A stretch of 64,000 nt of DNA from positions 416,001-480,000 of the forward strand of contig CM000435.1 in assembly GCA_000165345.1 (NCBI GenBank), in the 5' to 3' direction. The notes beneath the pieces are model-generated. The model had not been told where the DNA came from, made no database searches, and saw only the letters and a list, made by a program, of their open reading frames with translations. Positions 48,818 through 57,460 of this stretch are shown one piece after another. Position 1 is the first letter of the stretch, and each line of letters begins with the position of its first letter. The position numbers and the translations under genes were made by a program.

Positions 48818-48935
48818 TACTGTGGGTACTTTTTTGTTTTTAGGTATCTTCAACATTGCAAAAATGTTCCGTAATAAATCGTTTTTGAAATTCTGTTTCT
48901 TATATATTTTATATTTTTTCACCTTTTATTTTTCG

Positions 48936-50828
48936 ATGGTTGTTACAATATCTTTAAGAAGTCCAAGCAACTCAGGAAAGAAATTGGACTTGGAAAGTTT
49001 AAAGGAAAGTCTTGTTAAGGGTGGTCAGGACCACATTTTAAATTTGTTGGAGTCTGGCGATTCTGATAATGTAAATAGACTAATTTCTCAGTTAATGACT
49101 TTGGAAACTTCGTGTGTGGGTGGTGGGTTACTTGGATATATTAACAGAGCTAAGAAGTTATTGAAAGACTCAAAGGACGGTGTTAATCCAAGAGAAGGGT
49201 GTTATCCTGAGGTTCCAGAGGTAGTTAACTTAGATGTTGGTACTGAAGACTTTAAAAAATATGAGGAGCACGGCTTTTCTGTCCTAAAAAATGTTGCCTT
49301 TGTTTTGGTAGCTGGCGGTTTGGGTGAAAGACTTGCATTTGAGGGAATAAAAATAGGAATCGAGCTGTCAATGGCTTCCAACATCACATTTTTCCAGTTA
49401 TACACAAACTATATCAGGGAGTATCAGAGAAGGTTGAAGGAGGCTTTCGGAGAAGATATTGTAATTCCTTTGCTTATCATGACATCTGATGATACTGACA
49501 GTATGACTAGAAAGTTTTTGGAAGAAAATGATCATTTTGGCTTGAGAGAGGACCAGGTGTATATAGTAAAACAACTCAAGGTCCCTGCTTTGATAGATTC
49601 TGATGCAAAGATTGCATTGGATCCTGAAGACAAATACTCAATCTTAACAAAGCCTCATGGCCACGGAGATATTCACACTTTGCTCCATGCTTCAGGACTT
49701 TTGAAGGATCTTTTTGAGAAAGGAGTAAGATTTTTGGTTTTCATCCAAGATACAAATGCTTTAGTTTTTAATTCAGTACTTCCAGTATTGGGAGTTACAT
49801 CAATGAATTCATTCGTGATGAATAGTTTGACAATTCCCCGTATTCCATGCGAGGCAGTTGGCGCTTTGTGTAAGCTCAGATATCCAGATGGAAAGAAAAT
49901 TACTATTAATACAGAATATAACCAGCTCACTCCTTTACTCAAGAGCTGCGGTTTAGGATCAGATTTTGCTGATGAAAAGACAGGATACTCTCCTTTCCCT
50001 GGAAATTCGAACGTCTTGTTCATTTCAATGGATTACTATATGAAGACCTTGGAAAAGACTGGGGGAGTTGTACCTGAATTTGTGAACCCTAAGTATTTGG
50101 ACTCAACTAAAACAGCATTCAAAAGCCCAACTCGTTTAGAATGTATGATGCAAGATATTCCACTCTTATTTGAGGCTGATTACAAGGTTGGATGCGTGCA
50201 AATGCAGAGATGGGCTACATTCTCTGCTTGCAAGAATAGCTTGGCCGAGGGAAGAGCAAAACATAGTGCAGGAGTCTCCATAGATACCGCCTCTATAACA
50301 GAAGGCGACTTCTATGCAGCTGCCTCACAATATTTGAGATTGGCATCAATTGAAAAGGGTGTAGTTTGTAGAATTGAGGAGAGTGGAAGGGATCCAGTCA
50401 CTGGAAAGGATGATAAGAACTCTCTAATCAAACACGAAATGATCGCCGGAATTCCAGTCAGAGTTGGAGCAATGGTTGTTTTGCACCCTTCATTCGCAAT
50501 TAAGTATTCTGATCTTCTCCAAAGGATTCAGGCTGGTCCTATTATTATTACAAGTAGATCCTATGTGCATTTAGAAGGAGATGTGGTGATCAGTGGAAAA
50601 TTCTTTGTAGACGGTTCAGTTAGAATTGTGGCAAAGAACGGCTCAAGGATTATTATTAAGAATCTCATTGTTAACAATAATGGAACCACTAGATATCATA
50701 TTTCTGAGCAGGATATGGGACATGCAACCAGCAATCAAAAAATCAGAGGATATGGAATTAGACACGAGCAAATAAGGGAAATTATCTCGGATAACGGAGA
50801 AGAAGTTATTATCGACGATCAAAACTGA
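48936..50828 (+). CDS. USP: UDP-sugar pyrophosphorylase (UTP:monosaccharide-1-phosphate uridylyltransferase, USP type).
   Basis: NVAFVLVAGGLGERLAFEGIKIGIELS (the USP form of the NTP-transferase G-loop), KPHGHGDIHTLLHASGLL, and a beta-helix C-terminus. The ORF track starts at 48822 with a hydrophobic junk-like leader (MGTFLFLGIFNIAK...); the third ATG (MVVTISLRSPSNSGKK, 48936) sits just upstream of the conserved N-terminal block. The canonical E2F box at 48805-48817 lies immediately 5'. Confidence 0.75.
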   Translation: MVVTISLRSPSNSGKKLDLESLKESLVKGGQDHILNLLESGDSDNVNRLISQLMTLETSCVGGGLLGYINRAKKLLKDSKDGVNPREGCYPEVPEVVNLDVGTEDFKKYEEHGFSVLKNVAFVLVAGGLGERLAFEGIKIGIELSMASNITFFQLYTNYIREYQRRLKEAFGEDIVIPLLIMTSDDTDSMTRKFLEENDHFGLREDQVYIVKQLKVPALIDSDAKIALDPEDKYSILTKPHGHGDIHTLLHASGLLKDLFEKGVRFLVFIQDTNALVFNSVLPVLGVTSMNSFVMNSLTIPRIPCEAVGALCKLRYPDGKKITINTEYNQLTPLLKSCGLGSDFADEKTGYSPFPGNSNVLFISMDYYMKTLEKTGGVVPEFVNPKYLDSTKTAFKSPTRLECMMQDIPLLFEADYKVGCVQMQRWATFSACKNSLAEGRAKHSAGVSIDTASITEGDFYAAASQYLRLASIEKGVVCRIEESGRDPVTGKDDKNSLIKHEMIAGIPVRVGAMVVLHPSFAIKYSDLLQRIQAGPIIITSRSYVHLEGDVVISGKFFVDGSVRIVAKNGSRIIIKNLIVNNNGTTRYHISEQDMGHATSNQKIRGYGIRHEQIREIISDNGEEVIIDDQN

Positions 50829-50961
50829 ATAAATTTAATCTCACGCATATTTTTAGTACTTTTTTTAAAATTATTATTAGTTTTGTTTAATTTTTAATGT
50901 AAATTAAGACATTTTTGCATGCAAAATTCCCCCCTCATAATATAATTTTTACCCTTCAAGT

Positions 50962-50982
50962 GCCCGCCCATTTTTGGCGGGC
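50962..50982. promoter_or_regulatory. Perfect inverted-repeat E2F-type GC box GCCCGCC-cattttt-GGCGGGC, about 100 bp upstream of the CBM20-CDPK ATG.
   Basis: 7-bp arms that are exact reverse complements, separated by a 7-nt T-rich spacer. It is the only GC-dense spot in an AT-rich intergenic region; TGCATGCA lies 40 bp upstream (50916-50923). Confidence 0.4.
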
Positions 50983-51082
50983 AAACACATTAATGCAGAT
51001 TTATCCATGGAAACGTATTTCTTAGGAAAAAAGTAAATTTGTCAGGAATAAAGTACAAGTCATGTAAAAAACCCAAAAAAGC

Positions 51083-53113
51083 ATGGTTTTGATATCATGG
51101 GAATGTGTGTGTGATCTGACACATCCTGGACAGTCTTTGTATGTGGTAGGGAGCCACCCAAGACTGGGAGCTTGGAAGATTACAACTGAGCAAGAGGAAA
51201 ATAAGCCTATTCGACTTATTACTGACAAACTTTCCTATCCAGTCTGGAGGACAAGCGAGCCTATTAGGATTCGAGGTGCATGTCTTTTAGAGTATAAGTT
51301 TATTATTAGTAAGGAAACTGAACCGTACGAGAATCTAGAGTGGGAGCCAATTCAAGGAAACCGATACTTACAAGTCGACGAGAATTTTCCAGAATATAAG
51401 TATATTATTCATTGTAGTTGGGGAAATATTTCTAAAAGCACGATAAGGTTTGAAGAATATTTCGGTAATGATGGCAAAGTTGATGATTACTCATATAGAG
51501 CAAAGCCTGGAGCAAGGTATATTTCACCGGAAAATGCAGAAATATATTCTGAGGAGGATGAAGAACCTAAAGACAGAGGTGCTTATGAAAGCTCTGTAAC
51601 ACCTCCGCTAATGTTGAGTAGGACAGGGTCCAGATTAAGACTTCTATTGGACAGATCCAGATTTATTTTGAGCACCAAAGGTGACATCAACCAATATTAT
51701 ACTTTGGAAAATACTATAGGAAGGGGTTCTTGGGGTGAGGTAAAAATAGCTGTCCAGAAAGGAACCAGAATTCGTAGGGCAGCAAAAAAGATTCCAAAGT
51801 ACTTTGTTGAAGATGTTGATCGTTTTAAACAGGAAATCGAAATTATGAAGTCTTTGGATCATCCAAACATAATTAGGCTATACGAAACTTTTGAAGATAA
51901 TACTGATATATATTTGGTTATGGAACTATGTACTGGAGGAGAGCTTTTTGAAAGAGTTGTACACAAGAGAGTTTTCAGAGAAAGCGATGCTGCAAGAATT
52001 ATGAAAGATGTTTTAAGCGCTGTAGCTTATTGCCATAAGTTAAATGTGGCTCATAGGGATTTGAAACCTGAGAATTTCCTTTTCTTGACAGATTCTCCAG
52101 ATTCTCCCTTAAAATTGATTGACTTTGGCTTGGCAGCTAGATTCAAGCCTGGAAAAATGATGAGGACAAAGGTTGGAACTCCATATTATGTGAGCCCGCA
52201 GGTTTTGGAAGGTCTTTATGGCCCAGAGTGTGATGAATGGTCAGCAGGAGTAATGATGTACGTTTTGCTTTGTGGCTACCCTCCTTTCAGTGCACCTACA
52301 GATTCTGAGGTAATGCTTAAGATCAGAGAAGGAACATTTACATTTCCAGAAAAAGACTGGCTTAATGTTTCTCCTCAGGCAGAATCTTTAATAAGGAGGC
52401 TGTTGACAAAGTCTCCAAAACAAAGAATTACTTCTTTGCAAGCATTAGAACATGAGTGGTTTGAGAAACAACTTTCTTCATCTCCAAGGAACTTATTGCT
52501 AGATAATGTAATCTCTAACTTTAGAAGGTTCCAGGGCCTTTCAAGATTAAAAAAGATTGCTTTAACATTAATAGCTCAAAACATTGATGAAAGAGATATC
52601 CTAGATTTACACGACACATTTATGGAATTGGATACAAGTAGAGATGGAACGCTGAGCAGAGCCGAGATCATTGAAGGAATTAATAGAACAGGTTGTAGTC
52701 CAACAATTGGGATCGATGCTCTTCTTGACGAAATTGATCCTGAAGGTACTGATACTATTTCTTATACAGACTTTATTGCAGCTTGCATTCAAGAGCGGCA
52801 AATGTCCCATGAAAGTGCATGCAAAGCGGCATTTAGAGTATTTGACATTGATGGAGATGGACAGATTAGTAATATAGAATTTCTCAAGGTCATGTCTCTT
52901 TCTAGTAAGGCTAAAAAATCAGACGATGAACTAGCTCAAGAACTGAGCGAATTTATGAAATCAGGAGATTTAGATAAGGATGGAACGATTAATTTCGATG
53001 AGTTCTGCCATGTGATGAGAAGAGTCCCATCCAAATTTCTCCTTGGGGAGGCTTCTGATGACACAATAAATATGATGAAAAGATGTTCCTCTAGAACTAA
53101 CATTAATTTATAG
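51083..53113 (+). CDS. Calcium-dependent protein kinase with an N-terminal CBM20 starch-binding module (TgCDPK2-type architecture): CBM20, then Ser/Thr kinase, then 4 EF-hands.
   Basis: N-terminus VLISWECVCDLTHPGQSLYVVGSHPRLGAWKITTEQEENKPIRLITD...YPVWRTSEPI...LLEYKFIISKETEPYENLEWEPIQGNRYLQV is the CBM20 pattern (GQ.L.V.G....LG.W ... EYKF ... WE.G.NR). Kinase: GRGSWGEVKIAVQK...HRDLKPENFLF...DFGLA...GTPYYVSPQVL. EF-hands: DTSRDGTLSRAEI, DPEGTDTISYTDF, DIDGDGQISNIEF, DLDKDGTINFDEF. Confidence 0.85.
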   Translation: MVLISWECVCDLTHPGQSLYVVGSHPRLGAWKITTEQEENKPIRLITDKLSYPVWRTSEPIRIRGACLLEYKFIISKETEPYENLEWEPIQGNRYLQVDENFPEYKYIIHCSWGNISKSTIRFEEYFGNDGKVDDYSYRAKPGARYISPENAEIYSEEDEEPKDRGAYESSVTPPLMLSRTGSRLRLLLDRSRFILSTKGDINQYYTLENTIGRGSWGEVKIAVQKGTRIRRAAKKIPKYFVEDVDRFKQEIEIMKSLDHPNIIRLYETFEDNTDIYLVMELCTGGELFERVVHKRVFRESDAARIMKDVLSAVAYCHKLNVAHRDLKPENFLFLTDSPDSPLKLIDFGLAARFKPGKMMRTKVGTPYYVSPQVLEGLYGPECDEWSAGVMMYVLLCGYPPFSAPTDSEVMLKIREGTFTFPEKDWLNVSPQAESLIRRLLTKSPKQRITSLQALEHEWFEKQLSSSPRNLLLDNVISNFRRFQGLSRLKKIALTLIAQNIDERDILDLHDTFMELDTSRDGTLSRAEIIEGINRTGCSPTIGIDALLDEIDPEGTDTISYTDFIAACIQERQMSHESACKAAFRVFDIDGDGQISNIEFLKVMSLSSKAKKSDDELAQELSEFMKSGDLDKDGTINFDEFCHVMRRVPSKFLLGEASDDTINMMKRCSSRTNINL

Positions 53114-53257: not shown

Positions 53258-56200
53258 TTAGGCATTTTCCAGGATATTTTCATCTCCTGCACCTTCTTCT
53301 GCCTTTTCTCTGTCTCTATGAACGGAGGTTTTGCTTTTAACATCAGAAGAATAGTTACCCGGTATAATTGAGACAGATTTAGTAATGTCAAATGTTTTGT
53401 AAATCCCGACGAGCCTATCAGCCATTTCGAACATATGGTTTCTGAGAGAAACAACGATAAACTGAGCATTCTTGGTTTTCTCTTTAATGAATGTTGCGAT
53501 AATACTAACATTTCTAAAGTCCAGGGCTGCATCTACCTCGTCCATAAAATAGAGTGGCGACGGCCTAAATTGGTGTAGGGCAAATACTAGGGCAAGGGAA
53601 CTTAGGGTTTTTTCTCCTCCAGAAAGGTTATGAATGGGTCTCCAACTCTTTTTTGGTGGCCTTACTGAGAAAATTATACCGTCAGAAAATGGATCCACAC
53701 TATCAATCAATTCCAATTCAGCATCTCCACCAAGGGTAATCATCTGGTAAATTTCCTTAAGTTGAGATGCAATAATTTTGAAGCCAGAAATAAACTCAGA
53801 ATGTCTGGCCTGCCTTACAGTTTCAAGGTGTCTCCTGCTTTCATCTCTAGCATTAGTTGCTTCTTCAACTTCTTGGTTTCTTCTATTAAAGAGTTGGAGC
53901 TGACTAGAATACTGGGAGAAGATATCTGAGGAAGGTCTGAATTGTTTTACGGAGCCTTCATTTGAATATTGCTCACAAATTGCCTGGAGCTGTGCCTGCA
54001 AAGACTCAATATGCGGCTTAAGTTTTTTAGAAGTCATATCACCAAGTATTTTCTCATATTCGGCATCCTGAACATCCTGAATAAGGAATTTGCTCTTTAA
54101 AGACTCTAATTCAGAATTTTTTTCTGGCGCTGGTTGCTCACTCTTTTCAGGTTCTATTTCCGGAATAGATGGAATACAAGATGCATCTGCTCTGACCTTT
54201 TGGAGCTTTTTTTGTAGTTGCTTTATATTTTGACTTTCAACTTCAGAGATTTTTGCAGAAATCTCATTCAGTTTGTTGGATATCTCTACATCACGGAGCT
54301 CAAGTTTTTCAATTTCCCTTTCAATCTCTTCAAATCTAGCTTGGAATGAACTGTGTTCATTTAAAAATGAGTTCAACTCCTCTTCAGCGAGTTTCTTGCT
54401 TTCCATAATCTTCAGTGCGACTTCTTCAAGTGAAACAAGCTCAGATTCTGTCTTATCAATCGCTTCCTTAAGAGCCTTGGACTTATTTTCAAACTGTTCA
54501 ATGGATTCGATGGCCTTAAGTTTCTTTTTCTCAGACAAAGTAATTTCTACCTGGCTCTTGCTGATTTCACTTTCCAGAGCTCCAATAGTTTTTGTAAGTT
54601 CCTGAACAAGTTCAGATTGTTTCTTCATTTCTGGGCCTCCAATTTCGTTCATCTCATTTGTGAGGCGATCTACAACAATTTGCTTTTGCTTCAAAGAAGC
54701 TTCTAGGGTAGAGATTTGTTTTTTCAACCCCTCAATTTCAGATTCTAATCTTGAGATTTCTGCCATAATCTCTGTCTGATTACTAGGAGATTCTTGGCCA
54801 GTTTTGGACTGAATCTCAGATCTAGACTTTTCAGTCTCTTCTATTGAAGCAAGTTCAATCTTGATTTTCTCAAGGGTAATTGTATAGCCATTAATATCAT
54901 TTTTAAGGTTTTGAACATGATCTTCCAAATCCTTGCATTCAGATTTAATTTTATTGCATTTATTTTGACAGGCCTCTAAATCTGTCTCCATTTTTTTAAG
55001 CTGCTCAGGAGTGGGAATTTCTGAAGTCTTTTCCAACTTTTTACCAGCGTGCTTTGCAACAGAAACATTAGGGCCGCCTCCTGTCATTGTTCCACTGGAG
55101 TCGATCAATTCCCCATTAATAGTTACAACTCTCCATCTTTGCTTTCCATTATAGGAAATTTTGGTTGCAATATCGAGGTCATCGACAATTAGAGTGTCCC
55201 TCATTGCAAAATACCAGGCGATCTTGAATTTAGGGTCCTTAAACTTAACAAGATCAAAGAACCTTTTTGACCCTTCTGGAGCTTTAAATGTTTTTTCCAT
55301 ATTTTGTATTAGAGTAGCAGAAAGTTTTTCCAAGATAATACACGAGATCCTGCCCAAATTTGATTTTCTCACATAATTAACAACTTCTTGTGCATCTTCA
55401 GTAGTCTGCACAACGATGTTTTCAACCTGCGGCACTGAGGAGGCCAGAGCAAGTTGGAATTTGTCATCCACCTGACCCAAATCCCCCAGTCTTCCGTGTA
55501 CTCCACTTTTTTTATTTGCAGAAAAATATTTCATAACAGTTTCTGATAATGACATCTTGGGACCTTTTTGCTTTGATTCAGAAACAACCTTAGTTTCTAA
55601 GTGATTATTTGAAGCTAAAAGGCTTCTTGCTTCATCTAACTCGACCTTTTTTATACCTAGAAGTCTGGTATTCTCACTTAGATCTTTCTGTAGCTGTTCA
55701 AGCTTCTTAGATTTTTCATCAAGAAGAGCCTTACTGTCCTTTAGATTCTTAGAAAAATCCTTATTTTGCTTATTTAGAGCTTGAATCCTTTTAACAGTAT
55801 TTTCTTTCTCCCTCTTACTATTTTCTTCGTTTTCCTGTTTTTGAATCTGCCTTTGTTTCAACATATCCAATTCAATATTTAACATATCATGAGATTGTTG
55901 GAGATCTAAAAGCTTCTTTTGTAGTGGCGATAGCTCCTGCTCCGCCTTATCCTTCTTCTTTCTAGACTCTTCAATCCCATCCTTAACATTCTTCTGCAAC
56001 AATTCCAGCTTCTCCTGAGCAGAGTCGAGGTCCTTCGAGATCTTTGGGAGTTGCTTTTGTTTCTTTCGAACTTCATCTTCCAAATCAACGATTTTTTGCT
56101 CTAACTCTGGTATAAGTTTTTTTTCACCTTCCGCTGATTCCTCAAGTTTCAAAAGTCTTTTTTTTGAATTCTTTAAAGTGGCTCTCAGTTCCTCATCCTT

Positions 56201-57211
56201 CAGTAATATATTCTTAAACTCATTTTCCTCCTTCTCTAACTTAACCTTTAATTCGTTAACTCTGGAATTAGTCTCTTTGTTCTCAACTTCAAGCTCAGCT
56301 CGCCTATCTTCTAAGGCTTTCTTTTGGTGAGCTAGCTCTCCTCTAATATCCAAGTGTTTGTTTTGCTCATCTTTCAACGCATTCAAGTGTTTTATAGCAT
56401 CTCTTTGTTCCTCCAAATGAAGTAATAGCTTGGCAATGTAAATTTCTCTCTCAAGAGTAAAGAATTCAATAGCCATATTATAAGGACCTTTCAGAGTATT
56501 AAGCTCCTTCTCTGCGATTTTAAGTCTATTCAACTTTTCTTGACGAAGTTCATTAAACTGTTCAAGTTCCATTAAATGCTTTTCTATATCAGGAATAAAT
56601 CTGCTACTCCCTATAATATCCTCAATATATTCAAGCAAGCCATCCTCGTTGGCATTTGTAGATTTTGGCTTCATCTGAGCAATTAATTCAACCTCTCCTT
56701 GAAGGATTAGAAACCTATTATGCTCCAAGTCAGTCCCTTTTCCACTTAATAACTTAGTGACTTCCTGATAACTTGAAAGCTTTTCATTAATATAGTATTT
56801 TGTTTGCTCACTATTTTTATGTACCTCTCTCTTTATCACAATCTCAGAATTAGGAACGACTTTGTAGGCATGCTCATCTCCAGGTACATCTATAATTTCT
56901 TTAAAATGCACTGCAACACTTGCCTTTTCATTGTTTGGGTAATGCTTGGAGTTATGAATCAGTTCAGAAACTTTATTCAAGCGCATATGCTTTGCTCTTT
57001 TCCCAAACACAAATAGCATTGCATCTATTACATTACTTTTACCACTTCCATTTGGCCCCACAATCGCAGTAAACGACTTGTGAAATGGTCCAATAACCTT
57101 GCTGCCTCCATAAGATTTAAAATTTTCCAGAACTATCTTATGGATAATCAAGCGTGGTTTTTCTTGCTCTCCTCCAACGGATTTTGACTCGTCACTTTCT
57201 ATGTTCTCCAT
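53258..57211 (-). CDS. SMC4: Structural maintenance of chromosomes protein 4 (condensin SMC4).
   Basis: Walker A FTAIVGPNGSGKSNVIDAMLFVFGKRAKHMRLNKVSELIHNS (SMC4-type, not SMC2). Long coiled coils. Hinge (GRLGDLGQVDDKFQLALA...). C-terminal signature LSGGEKTLSSLALVFALH and Walker B/D-loop YFMDEVDAALD. The ORF track start at 57346 reads through the GGCGGGAAAA box at 57308; the ATG at 57211 (MENIESDESKS) is preferred. Confidence 0.8.
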   Translation of the reverse strand: MENIESDESKSVGGEQEKPRLIIHKIVLENFKSYGGSKVIGPFHKSFTAIVGPNGSGKSNVIDAMLFVFGKRAKHMRLNKVSELIHNSKHYPNNEKASVAVHFKEIIDVPGDEHAYKVVPNSEIVIKREVHKNSEQTKYYINEKLSSYQEVTKLLSGKGTDLEHNRFLILQGEVELIAQMKPKSTNANEDGLLEYIEDIIGSSRFIPDIEKHLMELEQFNELRQEKLNRLKIAEKELNTLKGPYNMAIEFFTLEREIYIAKLLLHLEEQRDAIKHLNALKDEQNKHLDIRGELAHQKKALEDRRAELEVENKETNSRVNELKVKLEKEENEFKNILLKDEELRATLKNSKKRLLKLEESAEGEKKLIPELEQKIVDLEDEVRKKQKQLPKISKDLDSAQEKLELLQKNVKDGIEESRKKKDKAEQELSPLQKKLLDLQQSHDMLNIELDMLKQRQIQKQENEENSKREKENTVKRIQALNKQNKDFSKNLKDSKALLDEKSKKLEQLQKDLSENTRLLGIKKVELDEARSLLASNNHLETKVVSESKQKGPKMSLSETVMKYFSANKKSGVHGRLGDLGQVDDKFQLALASSVPQVENIVVQTTEDAQEVVNYVRKSNLGRISCIILEKLSATLIQNMEKTFKAPEGSKRFFDLVKFKDPKFKIAWYFAMRDTLIVDDLDIATKISYNGKQRWRVVTINGELIDSSGTMTGGGPNVSVAKHAGKKLEKTSEIPTPEQLKKMETDLEACQNKCNKIKSECKDLEDHVQNLKNDINGYTITLEKIKIELASIEETEKSRSEIQSKTGQESPSNQTEIMAEISRLESEIEGLKKQISTLEASLKQKQIVVDRLTNEMNEIGGPEMKKQSELVQELTKTIGALESEISKSQVEITLSEKKKLKAIESIEQFENKSKALKEAIDKTESELVSLEEVALKIMESKKLAEEELNSFLNEHSSFQARFEEIEREIEKLELRDVEISNKLNEISAKISEVESQNIKQLQKKLQKVRADASCIPSIPEIEPEKSEQPAPEKNSELESLKSKFLIQDVQDAEYEKILGDMTSKKLKPHIESLQAQLQAICEQYSNEGSVKQFRPSSDIFSQYSSQLQLFNRRNQEVEEATNARDESRRHLETVRQARHSEFISGFKIIASQLKEIYQMITLGGDAELELIDSVDPFSDGIIFSVRPPKKSWRPIHNLSGGEKTLSSLALVFALHQFRPSPLYFMDEVDAALDFRNVSIIATFIKEKTKNAQFIVVSLRNHMFEMADRLVGIYKTFDITKSVSIIPGNYSSDVKSKTSVHRDREKAEEGAGDENILENA

Positions 57212-57307
57212 GTAATAAAAACATTTCAAACTCCCTTGAAGTCTATTTACTTTATTCAACCTCTTTTCTCCCAACTTTATCTGTTTACAATTGTGTGGGG
57301 GAATATT

Positions 57308-57317
57308 GGCGGGAAAA
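57308..57317. promoter_or_regulatory. GGCGGGAAAA E2F-like box, about 95 bp upstream of the SMC4 start codon (minus-strand gene).
   Basis: Same motif at 9986-9994 (5' of Rab7), 45467-45475 (between the COWP-like gene and ALG1), 61838-61845 (between the KH gene and NDH2) and 961-969 (TTTCCCGCG, 5' of SRP54). All are intergenic. Confidence 0.35.
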
Positions 57318-57460
57318 CATGCATAATGGGGAGCAACTGCAGGCAATAAAAGCCGGTACTAATGAAAAAGGCAGGTAATAAGAAAAAAAAATGAGGCATG
57401 TAAATTACACATATAATATAAGCTACCCAGCTACCTGGATCCTTTAGTAAAAATGTAATG

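What the first reader, a model, noticed from the sequence alone, without database searches (positions are those of the whole stretch)
51083..53113. CDPK fused to an N-terminal CBM20 starch-binding module
The first 110 aa or so of this CDPK read as a family-20 carbohydrate-binding module (GQSLYVVGSHPRLGAWK ... LLEYKF ... EWEPIQGNRYL). This sits ahead of a canonical CDPK kinase domain and four EF-hands. This architecture is known from Toxoplasma CDPK2, where it couples Ca2+ signalling to amylopectin turnover. Finding it here implies the same starch-regulatory circuit, which is relevant to the carbohydrate stores of sexual stages and oocysts.
Basis: partly seen in the sequence, partly recalled or inferred. 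Interest (0 to 1): 0.6.

Follow-up and report, generated by a model that had tools for sequence, protein, structure and literature searches.

The report
Known Cryptosporidium CDPK2 with starch-binding module
This gene is the already catalogued Cryptosporidium parvum kinase CpCDPK2 (cgd7_1840), a calcium-dependent kinase carrying a real starch-binding module like its Toxoplasma counterpart, so the reading is correct but not new.

Summary
Window 51083..53113 (+) is one uninterrupted 676-aa ORF. It has an N-terminal CBM20 (Pfam PF00686, 50 bits against a 23.3-bit cut-off), a complete Ser/Thr kinase domain and four EF-hand loops, of which three are canonical and the second is degenerate. An AlphaFold2 model of residues 1-130 (pLDDT 88.9) matches only solved CBM20 domains. 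The CBM20 site-1 residues (W31, E70, K72, W87, N93) and the site-2 Trp (W55) are conserved. The two site-2 tyrosines are not.

The protein is residue-for-residue identical to C. parvum EAK90225.1, and its kinase domain is identical to PDB 2qg5/3f3z, that is CpCDPK2 (cgd7_1840). The 2011 C. parvum kinome paper already lists it as 'CMB20.KD.EF.EF.EF.EF, 676 aa' beside TgCDPK2.

A tree built from the kinase and EF-hand region alone puts it with TgCDPK2 in a clade found in 300 of 300 bootstraps. That clade also contains every other CBM20-bearing CDPK sampled. A role in amylopectin turnover is a sound inference from orthology, but I found no test of it in Cryptosporidium.

Verdict: real, correctly interpreted, already known, low interest.

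The parts
51083..53113 (+). Complete single-exon coding sequence of CpCDPK2 (cgd7_1840), 676 aa plus the stop codon
   Evidence: ORF list. ATG start, TAG stop and an in-frame stop 5 codons upstream. Exact-sequence match to C. parvum EAK90225.1 / QOY40502.1.
51086..51424 (+). CBM20 starch-binding module, residues 2-114. Site-1 residues are W31, E70, K72, W87 and N93. The site-2 Trp is W55.
   Evidence: Pfam PF00686 matches residues 11-101 at 50.2 bits. phmmer finds solved CBM20s 7czj and 1ac0. The residue mapping is from an alignment with A. niger glucoamylase SBD and 16 orthologues. The AF2 model has beta-strands from residue 2 to 112 at pLDDT 88.9. The top 50 Foldseek PDB hits are all CBM20 domains.
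51425..51697 (+). Linker, residues 115-205. It starts with one further predicted beta-strand (115-125), continues as a poorly conserved acidic stretch, and ends in the conserved pre-kinase motif (RSRFILSTKGDINQYY).
   Evidence: No Pfam domain here. Low conservation except just before the kinase. Strand 115-125 is seen in the model.
51698..52462 (+). Ser/Thr protein kinase domain, residues 206-460. It has a G-loop GRGSWGEV (213-220), K235, HRDLKPEN (324-331) and DFG (347-349).
   Evidence: Pfam Pkinase E=1.2e-71. 100% identical to PDB 2qg5/3f3z over residues 194-472. Motifs.
52463..53020 (+). Junction and calmodulin-like activation domain, residues 461-646. EF loops lie at 517-528 (52631-52666), 552-563 (52736-52771, degenerate), 588-599 (52844-52879) and 629-640 (52967-53002).
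   Evidence: EF-hand_7, EF-hand_1, EF-hand_6 and related Pfam hits. Loop scan and PROSITE PS00018. Alignment to full-length CDPK structures 4mvf and 3lij through about residue 648.
53021..53110 (+). C-terminal tail specific to the CDPK2 clade, residues 647-676 (RRVPSKFLLGEASDDTINMMKRCSSRTNINL). Function unknown.
   Evidence: Present in every CDPK2-clade member compared whose C-terminus is present (one fragment, P0047, is truncated there) and absent from CDPK2A, CDPK2B and the other CDPKs compared.
50829..51082 (.). 254-bp 5' intergenic region, the presumed promoter and 5'UTR. It carries TGCATGCA (50916-50923) and the inverted repeat GCCCGCC / GGCGGGC (50962-50968 / 50976-50982).
   Evidence: Sequence. 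TGCATGCA occurs 14 times in the window against 0.88 expected. TTGGCGGG occurs 3 times against 0.27 expected. A regulatory function is inferred, not shown.

Best explanation
The ORF is Cryptosporidium parvum CpCDPK2 (cgd7_1840), the orthologue of Toxoplasma gondii CDPK2. Its architecture is CBM20, then a linker, then a kinase domain, then a junction and four EF-hands. Shown here: the CBM20 is a real, well-folded family-20 module with an intact site 1 (W31, E70, K72, W87, N93) and the site-2 Trp (W55). The kinase has all catalytic motifs, and the EF-hand domain has three canonical loops. Shown by others: the recombinant CpCDPK2 kinase is active. Inferred mechanism: the CBM20 tethers the kinase to amylopectin granules. 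A rise in Ca2+ engages the EF-hand domain and releases the autoinhibitory junction, as in other CDPKs. The granule-bound kinase then phosphorylates glucan-metabolising enzymes. In T. gondii the reported substrates or affected proteins are pyruvate phosphate dikinase, glucan water dikinase, glycogen phosphorylase, alpha-amylase and debranching enzyme. This promotes amylopectin turnover, and loss of the kinase would be expected to cause over-accumulation. In Cryptosporidium this would act where amylopectin is made and used: macrogamonts, oocysts and sporozoites. My confidence in identity, architecture and orthology is about 0.97. My confidence that it regulates amylopectin turnover in Cryptosporidium as TgCDPK2 does is about 0.6-0.65.
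For: Identity: exact match to C. parvum EAK90225.1 / QOY40502.1, and the kinase domain is 100% identical to PDB 2qg5/3f3z, which the kinome paper and PMC3239843 assign to CpCDPK2 cgd7_1840. The architecture is already tabulated as CMB20.KD.EF.EF.EF.EF, 676 aa, next to TgCDPK2, with kinetics of kcat 240 per min and KM syntide 260 uM. CBM20: Pfam 50.2 bits against a 23.3-bit cut-off; AF2 pLDDT 88.9 and pTM 0.82; the top 50 Foldseek PDB hits are all CBM20 domains, including STBD1, CGTase, glucoamylase, beta-amylase, GDE5 and laforin; W31, W55, K72, W87, E88, N93 and R94 are invariant across 18 orthologue N-termini; mapping to A. niger glucoamylase binding-site residues. Orthology: colinear 46% identity with TgCDPK2 over 99% of the length; CDPK2 clade in 300/300 bootstraps on kinase plus EF region alone; shared clade-specific C-terminal tail. 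Function in T. gondii: CDPK2 binds amylose resin and amylopectin granules, and its loss causes massive amylopectin accumulation (PMC9729606); regulation is mediated through its CBM20, and the substrates are glucan-turnover enzymes (PMC9254107; PMC11414933; PMC5574715). Relevance in C. parvum: amylopectin granules occur in macrogamonts, oocysts and sporozoites; glycogen phosphorylase could not be knocked out directly, and its depletion increases amylopectin-like granules (PMC10774378; PMC13007382).
Against: I found no experiment on glucan binding, localisation or knockout for CpCDPK2 in Cryptosporidium. Searches returned only the kinome and structural papers, plus work on the different gene CpCDPK2A. 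The site-2 tyrosines of classical CBM20s (A. niger Y527 and Y556) are not conserved: P15 replaces the first and the second falls in a deletion. This is true of the whole CDPK2 clade, including TgCDPK2, which does bind starch. EF-hand 2 is degenerate in Cryptosporidium compared with the clade consensus, so Ca2+ sensitivity may differ. Even in T. gondii it is unsettled which substrates are direct; GP Ser25 is not proven to be a CDPK2 site.
Confidence: 0.8

Rival explanations
1. The CBM20 is retained structurally but does not work mainly as a starch anchor in Cryptosporidium. It might act as an intramolecular regulatory module, or bind soluble maltooligosaccharides or another ligand. CpCDPK2 would then control a process other than amylopectin turnover, such as sexual-stage development or egress, as other CpCDPKs do.
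For: The site-2 tyrosines are missing. Cryptosporidium has a lineage-specific insertion directly after the site-1 Trp W31, with lower model confidence (pLDDT 72 for residues 31-40). EF2 is degenerate. Other Cryptosporidium CDPKs have stage-specific roles unrelated to starch.
Against: All site-1 residues and W55 are invariant across about 18 orthologues spanning Cryptosporidium, coccidia, gregarines and Vitrella, which indicates purifying selection on the glucan-binding surface. TgCDPK2 has the same site-2 substitutions and still binds amylose and granules. In my search CBM20-bearing CDPKs turned up only in lineages I know to store amylopectin or starch, and none from Plasmodium or piroplasms appeared among the 120 best matches listed. 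The point about starch storage rests on my own knowledge.
Confidence: 0.17
2. The fusion is an artefact: an unrelated upstream ORF or exon encoding a CBM20 has been read through into a separate kinase gene.
For: None found. The roughly 90-aa linker (residues 115-205) is poorly conserved and has no domain hit.
Against: It is a single uninterrupted ORF with no frame shift or stop between the CBM20 and the kinase. The same fusion is annotated or assembled independently in at least 9 Cryptosporidium species or lineages, Toxoplasma, Besnoitia, Cyclospora, Eimeria, Vitrella and gregarines, including transcriptome-derived sequences. Published annotation gives the same 676-aa length.
Confidence: 0.01
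3. The CBM20 match is a chance resemblance of a generic beta-sandwich, or the domain belongs to another CBM family such as CBM21, CBM48 or CBM53.
For: Pairwise sequence identity to solved CBM20s is only 17-26%, and single-sequence phmmer E-values are modest (2e-4 to 8e-3).
Against: The Pfam profile score is twice the curated cut-off, and no other CBM family is reported even at E<=1. Every one of the 50 best structural matches is a CBM20. The family's signature binding residues align exactly.
Confidence: 0.02

Closest known systems
Toxoplasma gondii CDPK2 (TGME49_225490), a CBM20-containing calcium-dependent protein kinase
   Same: Same domain order (CBM20, linker, kinase, junction, four EF-hands). 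Colinear alignment over 99% of the length at 46% identity. Same clade in 300/300 bootstraps on kinase plus EF region. Same conserved site-1 residues and W55, and the same loss of the site-2 tyrosines. Same clade-specific C-terminal tail.
   Different: The CBM20 itself is only about 33% identical. Cryptosporidium has a 6-residue (up to about 30 in C. xiaoi and C. ryanae) insertion after W31. The linker is shorter and unrelated in sequence. The EF2 loop is degenerate (DPEGTDTISYTD against DTAGTGSIDYTE). Function is demonstrated for TgCDPK2 but not for CpCDPK2.
Classical CBM20 starch-binding domains (A. niger glucoamylase SBD 1ac0, CGTase domain E, human STBD1 CBM20 8x8k, laforin 4rkk)
   Same: Same beta-sandwich fold: Foldseek probability 1.00, TM-score normalised to the target 0.73-0.83 for the isolated CBM20 domains of bacterial amylases and human STBD1 and GDE5, rmsd 2.3-4.0 A. 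The site-1 Trp pair, Lys, Glu and Asn are conserved, as is the site-2 Trp.
   Different: Here the module is attached to a signalling kinase at the N-terminus, not to a glycoside hydrolase or phosphatase. The equivalents of site-2 Y527 and Y556 are absent. There is an extra loop after W31 and an additional predicted strand at residues 115-125.
Other C. parvum CDPKs (CpCDPK1 cgd3_920, CpCDPK2A cgd2_1060, CpCDPK3 and others)
   Same: Kinase plus four EF-hand CDPK core, with PDB matches at 1e-95 to 1e-101.
   Different: None of these is listed with a CBM20. CDPK2A and CDPK2B orthologues fall outside the CDPK2 clade and lack the C-terminal tail. CpCDPK2A, despite the similar name, is a different gene with a different published phenotype.

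Membership tests
CBM20 (CAZy family 20 carbohydrate-binding module; Pfam PF00686) | Significant match to the family profile above the curated gathering score | tested here: met
   50.2 bits and E=2.3e-13 for residues 1-120; 44.4 bits in the full-length protein; cut-off 23.3 bits; profile positions 10-90 of 97.
CBM20 (CAZy family 20 carbohydrate-binding module; Pfam PF00686) | Beta-sandwich fold superimposable on solved CBM20 domains | tested here: met
   AF2 model with pLDDT 88.9 and pTM 0.82. The top 50 Foldseek PDB hits are all CBM20 domains, with E down to 8e-7 and rmsd 2.3-3.1 A. This is a predicted structure, not a solved one.
CBM20 (CAZy family 20 carbohydrate-binding module; Pfam PF00686) | Binding site 1: two Trp plus Lys, Glu and Asn (A. 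niger GA W543, W590, K578, E576, N595; residue list from my knowledge of Sorimachi et al. 1997) | tested here: met
   W31, W87, K72, E70 and N93 align to these positions. The Trp, Lys and Asn columns are invariant in 16 CDPK2 orthologues, and the Glu column is invariant in 15 of 16, with one Gln.
CBM20 (CAZy family 20 carbohydrate-binding module; Pfam PF00686) | Binding site 2: Y527, Y556 and W563 equivalents | tested here: inconclusive
   W55 equals W563 and is invariant. Y527 is replaced by P15, and Y556 falls in a 2-residue deletion. A conserved aromatic (Y52, or F or W in orthologues) sits 3 residues before W55 and might substitute.
CBM20 (CAZy family 20 carbohydrate-binding module; Pfam PF00686) | Demonstrated binding to starch, amylopectin or cyclodextrin | not testable with these tools
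   No published binding assay for CpCDPK2 was found. Binding is shown for the orthologue TgCDPK2.
Canonical calcium-dependent protein kinase (CDPK) | Complete Ser/Thr kinase domain with catalytic Lys, HRD and DFG | tested here: met
   Pkinase E=1.2e-71 over profile positions 1-263 of 263. GRGSWGEV, K235, HRDLKPEN and DFG are present. Solved structures 2qg5 and 3f3z are of this very domain. Activity was measured by Artz et al..
Canonical calcium-dependent protein kinase (CDPK) | C-terminal junction plus calmodulin-like domain with four EF-hands | tested here: met
   Four loops at residues 517, 552, 588 and 629. Three satisfy PROSITE PS00018 and loop 2 is degenerate. EF-hand Pfam families are significant. 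The protein aligns to full-length CDPK structures through about residue 648.
Canonical calcium-dependent protein kinase (CDPK) | Ca2+-dependent activation | not testable with these tools
   Inferred from family membership. The kinome paper reports kinetics, but I did not verify Ca2+ dependence for this enzyme.
CDPK2 orthologous group (TgCDPK2-type CBM20-CDPKs) | Monophyly with TgCDPK2 on the kinase plus EF region, excluding the CBM20 | tested here: met
   NJ tree of 39 sequences and 444 columns. The bipartition is found in 300/300 bootstraps. CDPK2A and CDPK2B lie outside. This is a distance method only; no ML tree was run.
CDPK2 orthologous group (TgCDPK2-type CBM20-CDPKs) | N-terminal CBM20 fused to the CDPK core | tested here: met
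   Five clade members carry no precomputed PF00686 hit. Two start inside the kinase domain and one has only a short N-terminus, so they look like truncated models; one retains a partial CBM20; and one has a long N-terminus without a CBM20.
CDPK2 orthologous group (TgCDPK2-type CBM20-CDPKs) | Regulates amylopectin turnover (loss leads to amylopectin accumulation) | not testable with these tools
   Shown for T. gondii. No data were found for Cryptosporidium, and reviews state that regulation of amylopectin there is unresolved.

The most novel reading that the evidence does not exclude
CpCDPK2 may be the still-unidentified Ca2+-dependent switch for amylopectin mobilisation in Cryptosporidium macrogamonts, oocysts and sporozoites, acting upstream of or alongside the apparently essential glycogen phosphorylase. 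It may have lineage-specific tuning: the insertion next to the site-1 Trp, a degenerate EF-hand 2, and a conserved CDPK2-clade C-terminal tail (MMKRCSSRTN) that I have not seen described and that could be a regulatory or autophosphorylation element. The CBM20-CDPK fusion would also predate the split between apicomplexans and chromerids, since it is present in Vitrella and gregarines, and would have been lost together with starch in Haematozoa.
Probability: 0.45. Interest if true: 0.35.

Novelty: already known. Interest (0 to 1): 0.12.

Why it matters
The finding adds nothing new as a discovery. The gene, its CBM20-kinase-EF architecture and its pairing with TgCDPK2 were published in 2011, and the kinase domain has two crystal structures. 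Its remaining value is as a pointer to an experiment. Recent Cryptosporidium papers state that the regulation of amylopectin turnover and granule formation is unresolved. Amylopectin content correlates with sporozoite viability, and glycogen phosphorylase could not be knocked out directly. CpCDPK2 is the obvious untested candidate regulator, and as a CDPK it has no close counterpart in the mammalian host. The sequence evidence here, namely an intact site 1, strict orthology and a conserved tail, makes that experiment well justified, but it is an expected extension of the Toxoplasma work and not a surprise.

Tried and rejected
(1) A word-indexed homologue search with only the N-terminal 199 aa returned no hit at all, not even the protein itself. 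I treat this as a limit of the index and not as evidence. The full-length query worked.

(2) The first bootstrap tree with Biopython's distance calculator timed out. I replaced it with a numpy Kimura-distance NJ. The support value of 56.5 printed after re-rooting conflicts with the direct count, so I rely on the direct bipartition count of 300/300.

(3) The primary TgCDPK2 paper (Uboldi et al. 2015, Cell Host Microbe 18:670) is not held. Its findings are cited only through papers that describe them. I could not check which CBM20 residues were mutated there, or whether the Cryptosporidium orthologue is discussed.

(4) A mis-joined ORF or upstream exon is rejected.

(5) Another CBM family is rejected: Pfam reports no other CBM family even at E<=1, and all structural hits are CBM20.

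(6) Confusion with CpCDPK2A (cgd2_1060), which has recent knockout data, is ruled out. It is a different gene.

(7) The dinoflagellate 'CDPK2'/CBM20 paper was checked. The CBM20 there belongs to a starch synthase, so it is not relevant.

(8) The tRNA scan of the window found nothing.
Full report
**What is there.** Window 51083..53113 (+) is a single uninterrupted ORF of 676 codons, with an ATG start and a TAG stop. An in-frame stop lies five codons upstream of the ATG, so no longer N-terminus can be read from this frame.

**Domains.** Against Pfam-A the protein gives these matches:
- Pkinase at residues 206-460, E=1.2e-71, covering the full profile.
- Several EF-hand families. EF-hand_7 scores E=3.3e-22, and EF-hand_1 has three stretches.
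- CBM_20 (PF00686) at residues 11-101, E=1.5e-11 and 44.4 bits. Residues 1-120 alone score 50.2 bits and E=2.3e-13, against a curated cut-off of 23.3 bits.

No other carbohydrate-binding family is reported even at E<=1.

**Is the CBM20 real and likely functional?** Single-sequence phmmer of residues 1-130 against PDB finds only starch-binding domains at meaningful E-values. These are the maltotetraose-forming amylase CBM20 7czj at 2e-4 and the A. niger glucoamylase SBD 1ac0 at 8e-3. An AlphaFold2 model of residues 1-130, built on an alignment of 18 orthologues, is confident, with mean pLDDT 88.9 and pTM 0.82. It is all-beta from residue 2 to 125. Foldseek against PDB returns CBM20 domains in all 50 top places: CGTase domain E, human STBD1 CBM20 with maltotetraose, glucoamylase and beta-amylase SBDs, GDE5 CBM20 and laforin. 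Probability is 1.00 and rmsd is 2.3-3.1 A for the best hits.

I aligned the module with the A. niger glucoamylase SBD and 16 CDPK2 orthologues, which is consistent with the HMMER pairwise alignment. The binding-site residue list is from my knowledge of the Sorimachi et al. 1997 NMR work.

| Site | A. niger GA residue | CpCDPK2 residue | Conservation in 16 orthologues |
|---|---|---|---|
| 1 | W543 | W31 | invariant |
| 1 | E576 | E70 | 15 of 16 (one Gln) |
| 1 | K578 | K72 | invariant |
| 1 | W590 | W87 | invariant |
| 1 | N595 | N93 | invariant |
| 2 | W563 | W55 | invariant |
| 2 | Y527 | P15 | Tyr absent in all 16 (Pro in 14) |
| 2 | Y556 | in a two-residue deletion | aromatic (Y52, F or W) three residues before W55 |

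TgCDPK2 shows the same site-2 pattern and does bind amylose resin and amylopectin granules (PMC9729606). The missing tyrosines therefore do not argue against starch binding.

Cryptosporidium species carry an extra polar or acidic loop directly after W31. It spans residues 33-41 here and is about 30 residues long in C. xiaoi and C. ryanae. This is the only part of the module with reduced model confidence.

**Kinase and Ca2+ module.** The kinase has the G-loop GRGSWGEV, K235, HRDLKPEN and DFG. Four EF-hand loops are present at residues 517, 552, 588 and 629. Loops 1, 3 and 4 satisfy PROSITE PS00018. Loop 2 (DPEGTDTISYTD) does not, and it departs from the clade consensus DTxGTGxIDYTE. 'Four EF-hands' is right for the architecture, with one probably weakened site.

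**Identity.** Residues 194-472 are 100% identical to PDB 2qg5 and 3f3z. The whole 676-aa sequence is an exact match to C. parvum EAK90225.1 and QOY40502.1, with C. hominis and C. meleagridis versions in the same 90% cluster. Two papers assign 2qg5/3f3z to CpCDPK2, EuPathDB cgd7_1840 (PMC3227725; PMC3239843). The window is therefore C. parvum chromosome 7 sequence, going by the cgd7 prefix.

**Already known.** Table 1 of 'The Cryptosporidium parvum Kinome' (Artz et al. 2011, PMC3227725) lists 'CpCDPK2 cgd7_1840 CMB20.KD.EF.EF.EF.EF 254 676', directly above 'TgCDPK2 ... CMB20.KD.EF.EF.EF.EF 254 711'. [quoted passage not shown] The paper also reports kinetics: KM syntide 260 uM, KM ATP 22 uM and kcat 240 per min. 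The precomputed Pfam annotation of the database entry also carries PF00686.

**Orthology with TgCDPK2.**
- A full-length search finds CBM20+kinase+EF proteins in nine Cryptosporidium lineages, Cyclospora, Toxoplasma, Besnoitia, Eimeria, the chromerid Vitrella, the gregarines Porospora and Lankesteria, and several environmental sequences.
- TgCDPK2 (P0017) scores 659 bits, against 460 for TgCDPK2A and 455 for TgCDPK2B.
- TgCDPK2 aligns colinearly over 99% of the length at 46% identity.
- An NJ tree on 444 columns of the kinase plus EF region only, with the CBM20 excluded, recovers a clade of 20 sequences in 300/300 bootstraps. It holds all 15 CBM20-bearing proteins sampled. CDPK2A and CDPK2B are outside it.
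- Five clade members carry no CBM20 annotation. Two start inside the kinase domain and one has only a short N-terminus, so these three look truncated. One keeps a partial CBM20. One has a long N-terminus with no CBM20.
- All clade members whose C-terminus is present share a roughly 30-residue tail after EF4, here RRVPSKFLLGEASDDTINMMKRCSSRTNINL. It is absent from every CDPK outside the clade that I compared.

**Mechanism.** Shown for T. gondii by others:
- CDPK2 binds amylose and amylopectin granules, and its loss causes massive amylopectin accumulation and bradyzoite death.
- Whether GP Ser25 is a direct CDPK2 site is unresolved.

Shown for C. parvum by others:
- Amylopectin granules occur in macrogamonts, oocysts and sporozoites.
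- Glycogen phosphorylase could not be knocked out directly, and its depletion increases amylopectin-like granules in macrogamonts.
[quoted passage not shown] A 2026 review repeats that granule formation needs study and does not mention CDPK2 (PMC13007382).

Inferred here: CpCDPK2 is tethered to granules by its CBM20, is activated by Ca2+ through the EF-hand domain, and phosphorylates granule-associated glucan enzymes to promote turnover. I put this at about 0.6-0.65. Identity, architecture and orthology I put at about 0.97. I found no experimental work on CpCDPK2 function. The recent CRISPR studies concern CpCDPK2A (cgd2_1060), a different gene.

**Rivals.**
- Mis-joined ORF: excluded.
- Chance beta-sandwich or another CBM family: excluded.
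- Functional divergence, with the CBM20 serving regulation or another ligand, or the kinase controlling a non-starch process: cannot be excluded without experiments. It is disfavoured by the strict conservation of the glucan-binding residues across a very deep clade.

**Context.**
- The upstream same-strand neighbour (48822..50828) is a UDPGP-family nucleotide-sugar pyrophosphorylase.
- The downstream convergent neighbour (53258..57346, minus strand) is an SMC protein.
- The 254-bp 5' intergenic region carries TGCATGCA and an inverted GCCCGCC/GGCGGGC pair. Both motif types are over-represented in the window.

**Verdict.** The finding is already known, so interest is low. The only open part is the untested function in Cryptosporidium.

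Noticed in passing
window 53021-53110 (residues 647-676 of the ORF): A roughly 30-aa C-terminal tail follows EF-hand 4 (RRVPSKFLLGEASDDTINMMKRCSSRTNINL). The motif [RK][VI]PS..L...T[VI].MM[KRQ][RK]..SR[TS]N is conserved in every CDPK2-clade member compared whose C-terminus is present, including Vitrella and gregarines. It is absent from CDPK2A, CDPK2B and the other CDPKs compared. Its function is unknown, and I did not find it described. The basic-x-x-Ser context suggests a possible (auto)phosphorylation site, which is inference only.
   Followed up: partly
window 50829-51082 (5' intergenic region); also 45465, 57306 and 13 other TGCATGCA sites: The upstream region of the gene carries TGCATGCA (50916-50923) and an inverted repeat GCCCGCC (50962-50968) / GGCGGGC (50976-50982). 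TGCATGCA occurs 14 times in the window against 0.88 expected. TTGGCGGG occurs 3 times against 0.27 expected, all three in likely 5' regions. From memory these resemble the ApiAP2-type and E2F-like upstream motifs described for Cryptosporidium. I did not verify this.
   Followed up: partly
window 48822-50828 (+): The gene immediately upstream, on the same strand and 254 bp away, is a UDPGP-family protein (UTP-glucose-1-phosphate uridylyltransferase family, PF01704, E=6e-21). It is a nucleotide-sugar pyrophosphorylase sitting next to the starch-binding kinase. The adjacency is probably coincidental, and I did not test whether it is conserved elsewhere.
   Followed up: no
window 52736-52771 (EF-hand loop 2, residues 552-563): The second EF-hand loop, DPEGTDTISYTD, fails PROSITE PS00018. 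Position 3 is E, position 5 is T, position 6 is D instead of G, and position 12 is D. It departs from the CDPK2-clade consensus DTxGTGxIDYTE. This suggests weakened Ca2+ binding at this site in Cryptosporidium.
   Followed up: partly
window 51179-51205 (residues 33-41); orthologues P0011 and P0012: Cryptosporidium has a lineage-specific polar or acidic insertion directly after the site-1 Trp W31 of the CBM20. It adds 6 residues here relative to TgCDPK2 and about 30 residues in C. xiaoi and C. ryanae. It coincides with the only dip in model confidence (pLDDT 72).
   Followed up: partly
proteins P0024 (Vitrella), P0025 (Lankesteria), P0028 (Porospora), P0030 (Gregarina): The CBM20-CDPK fusion is present in the photosynthetic chromerid Vitrella brassicaformis and in gregarines, so it predates the split between apicomplexans and chromerids. 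No Plasmodium or piroplasm member appeared among the 120 best matches listed. A few clade members lack the CBM20, mostly because their models are truncated.
   Followed up: partly
window 53258-57346 (-): The convergent downstream neighbour is an SMC-family protein with SMC_N, SMC hinge and AAA domains. Its stop codon lies 145 bp from the CDPK2 stop. The listed ORF starts at a TTG, so the true ATG is probably further in. A TTGGCGGG motif sits at 57306-57313, within that 5' extension.
   Followed up: no
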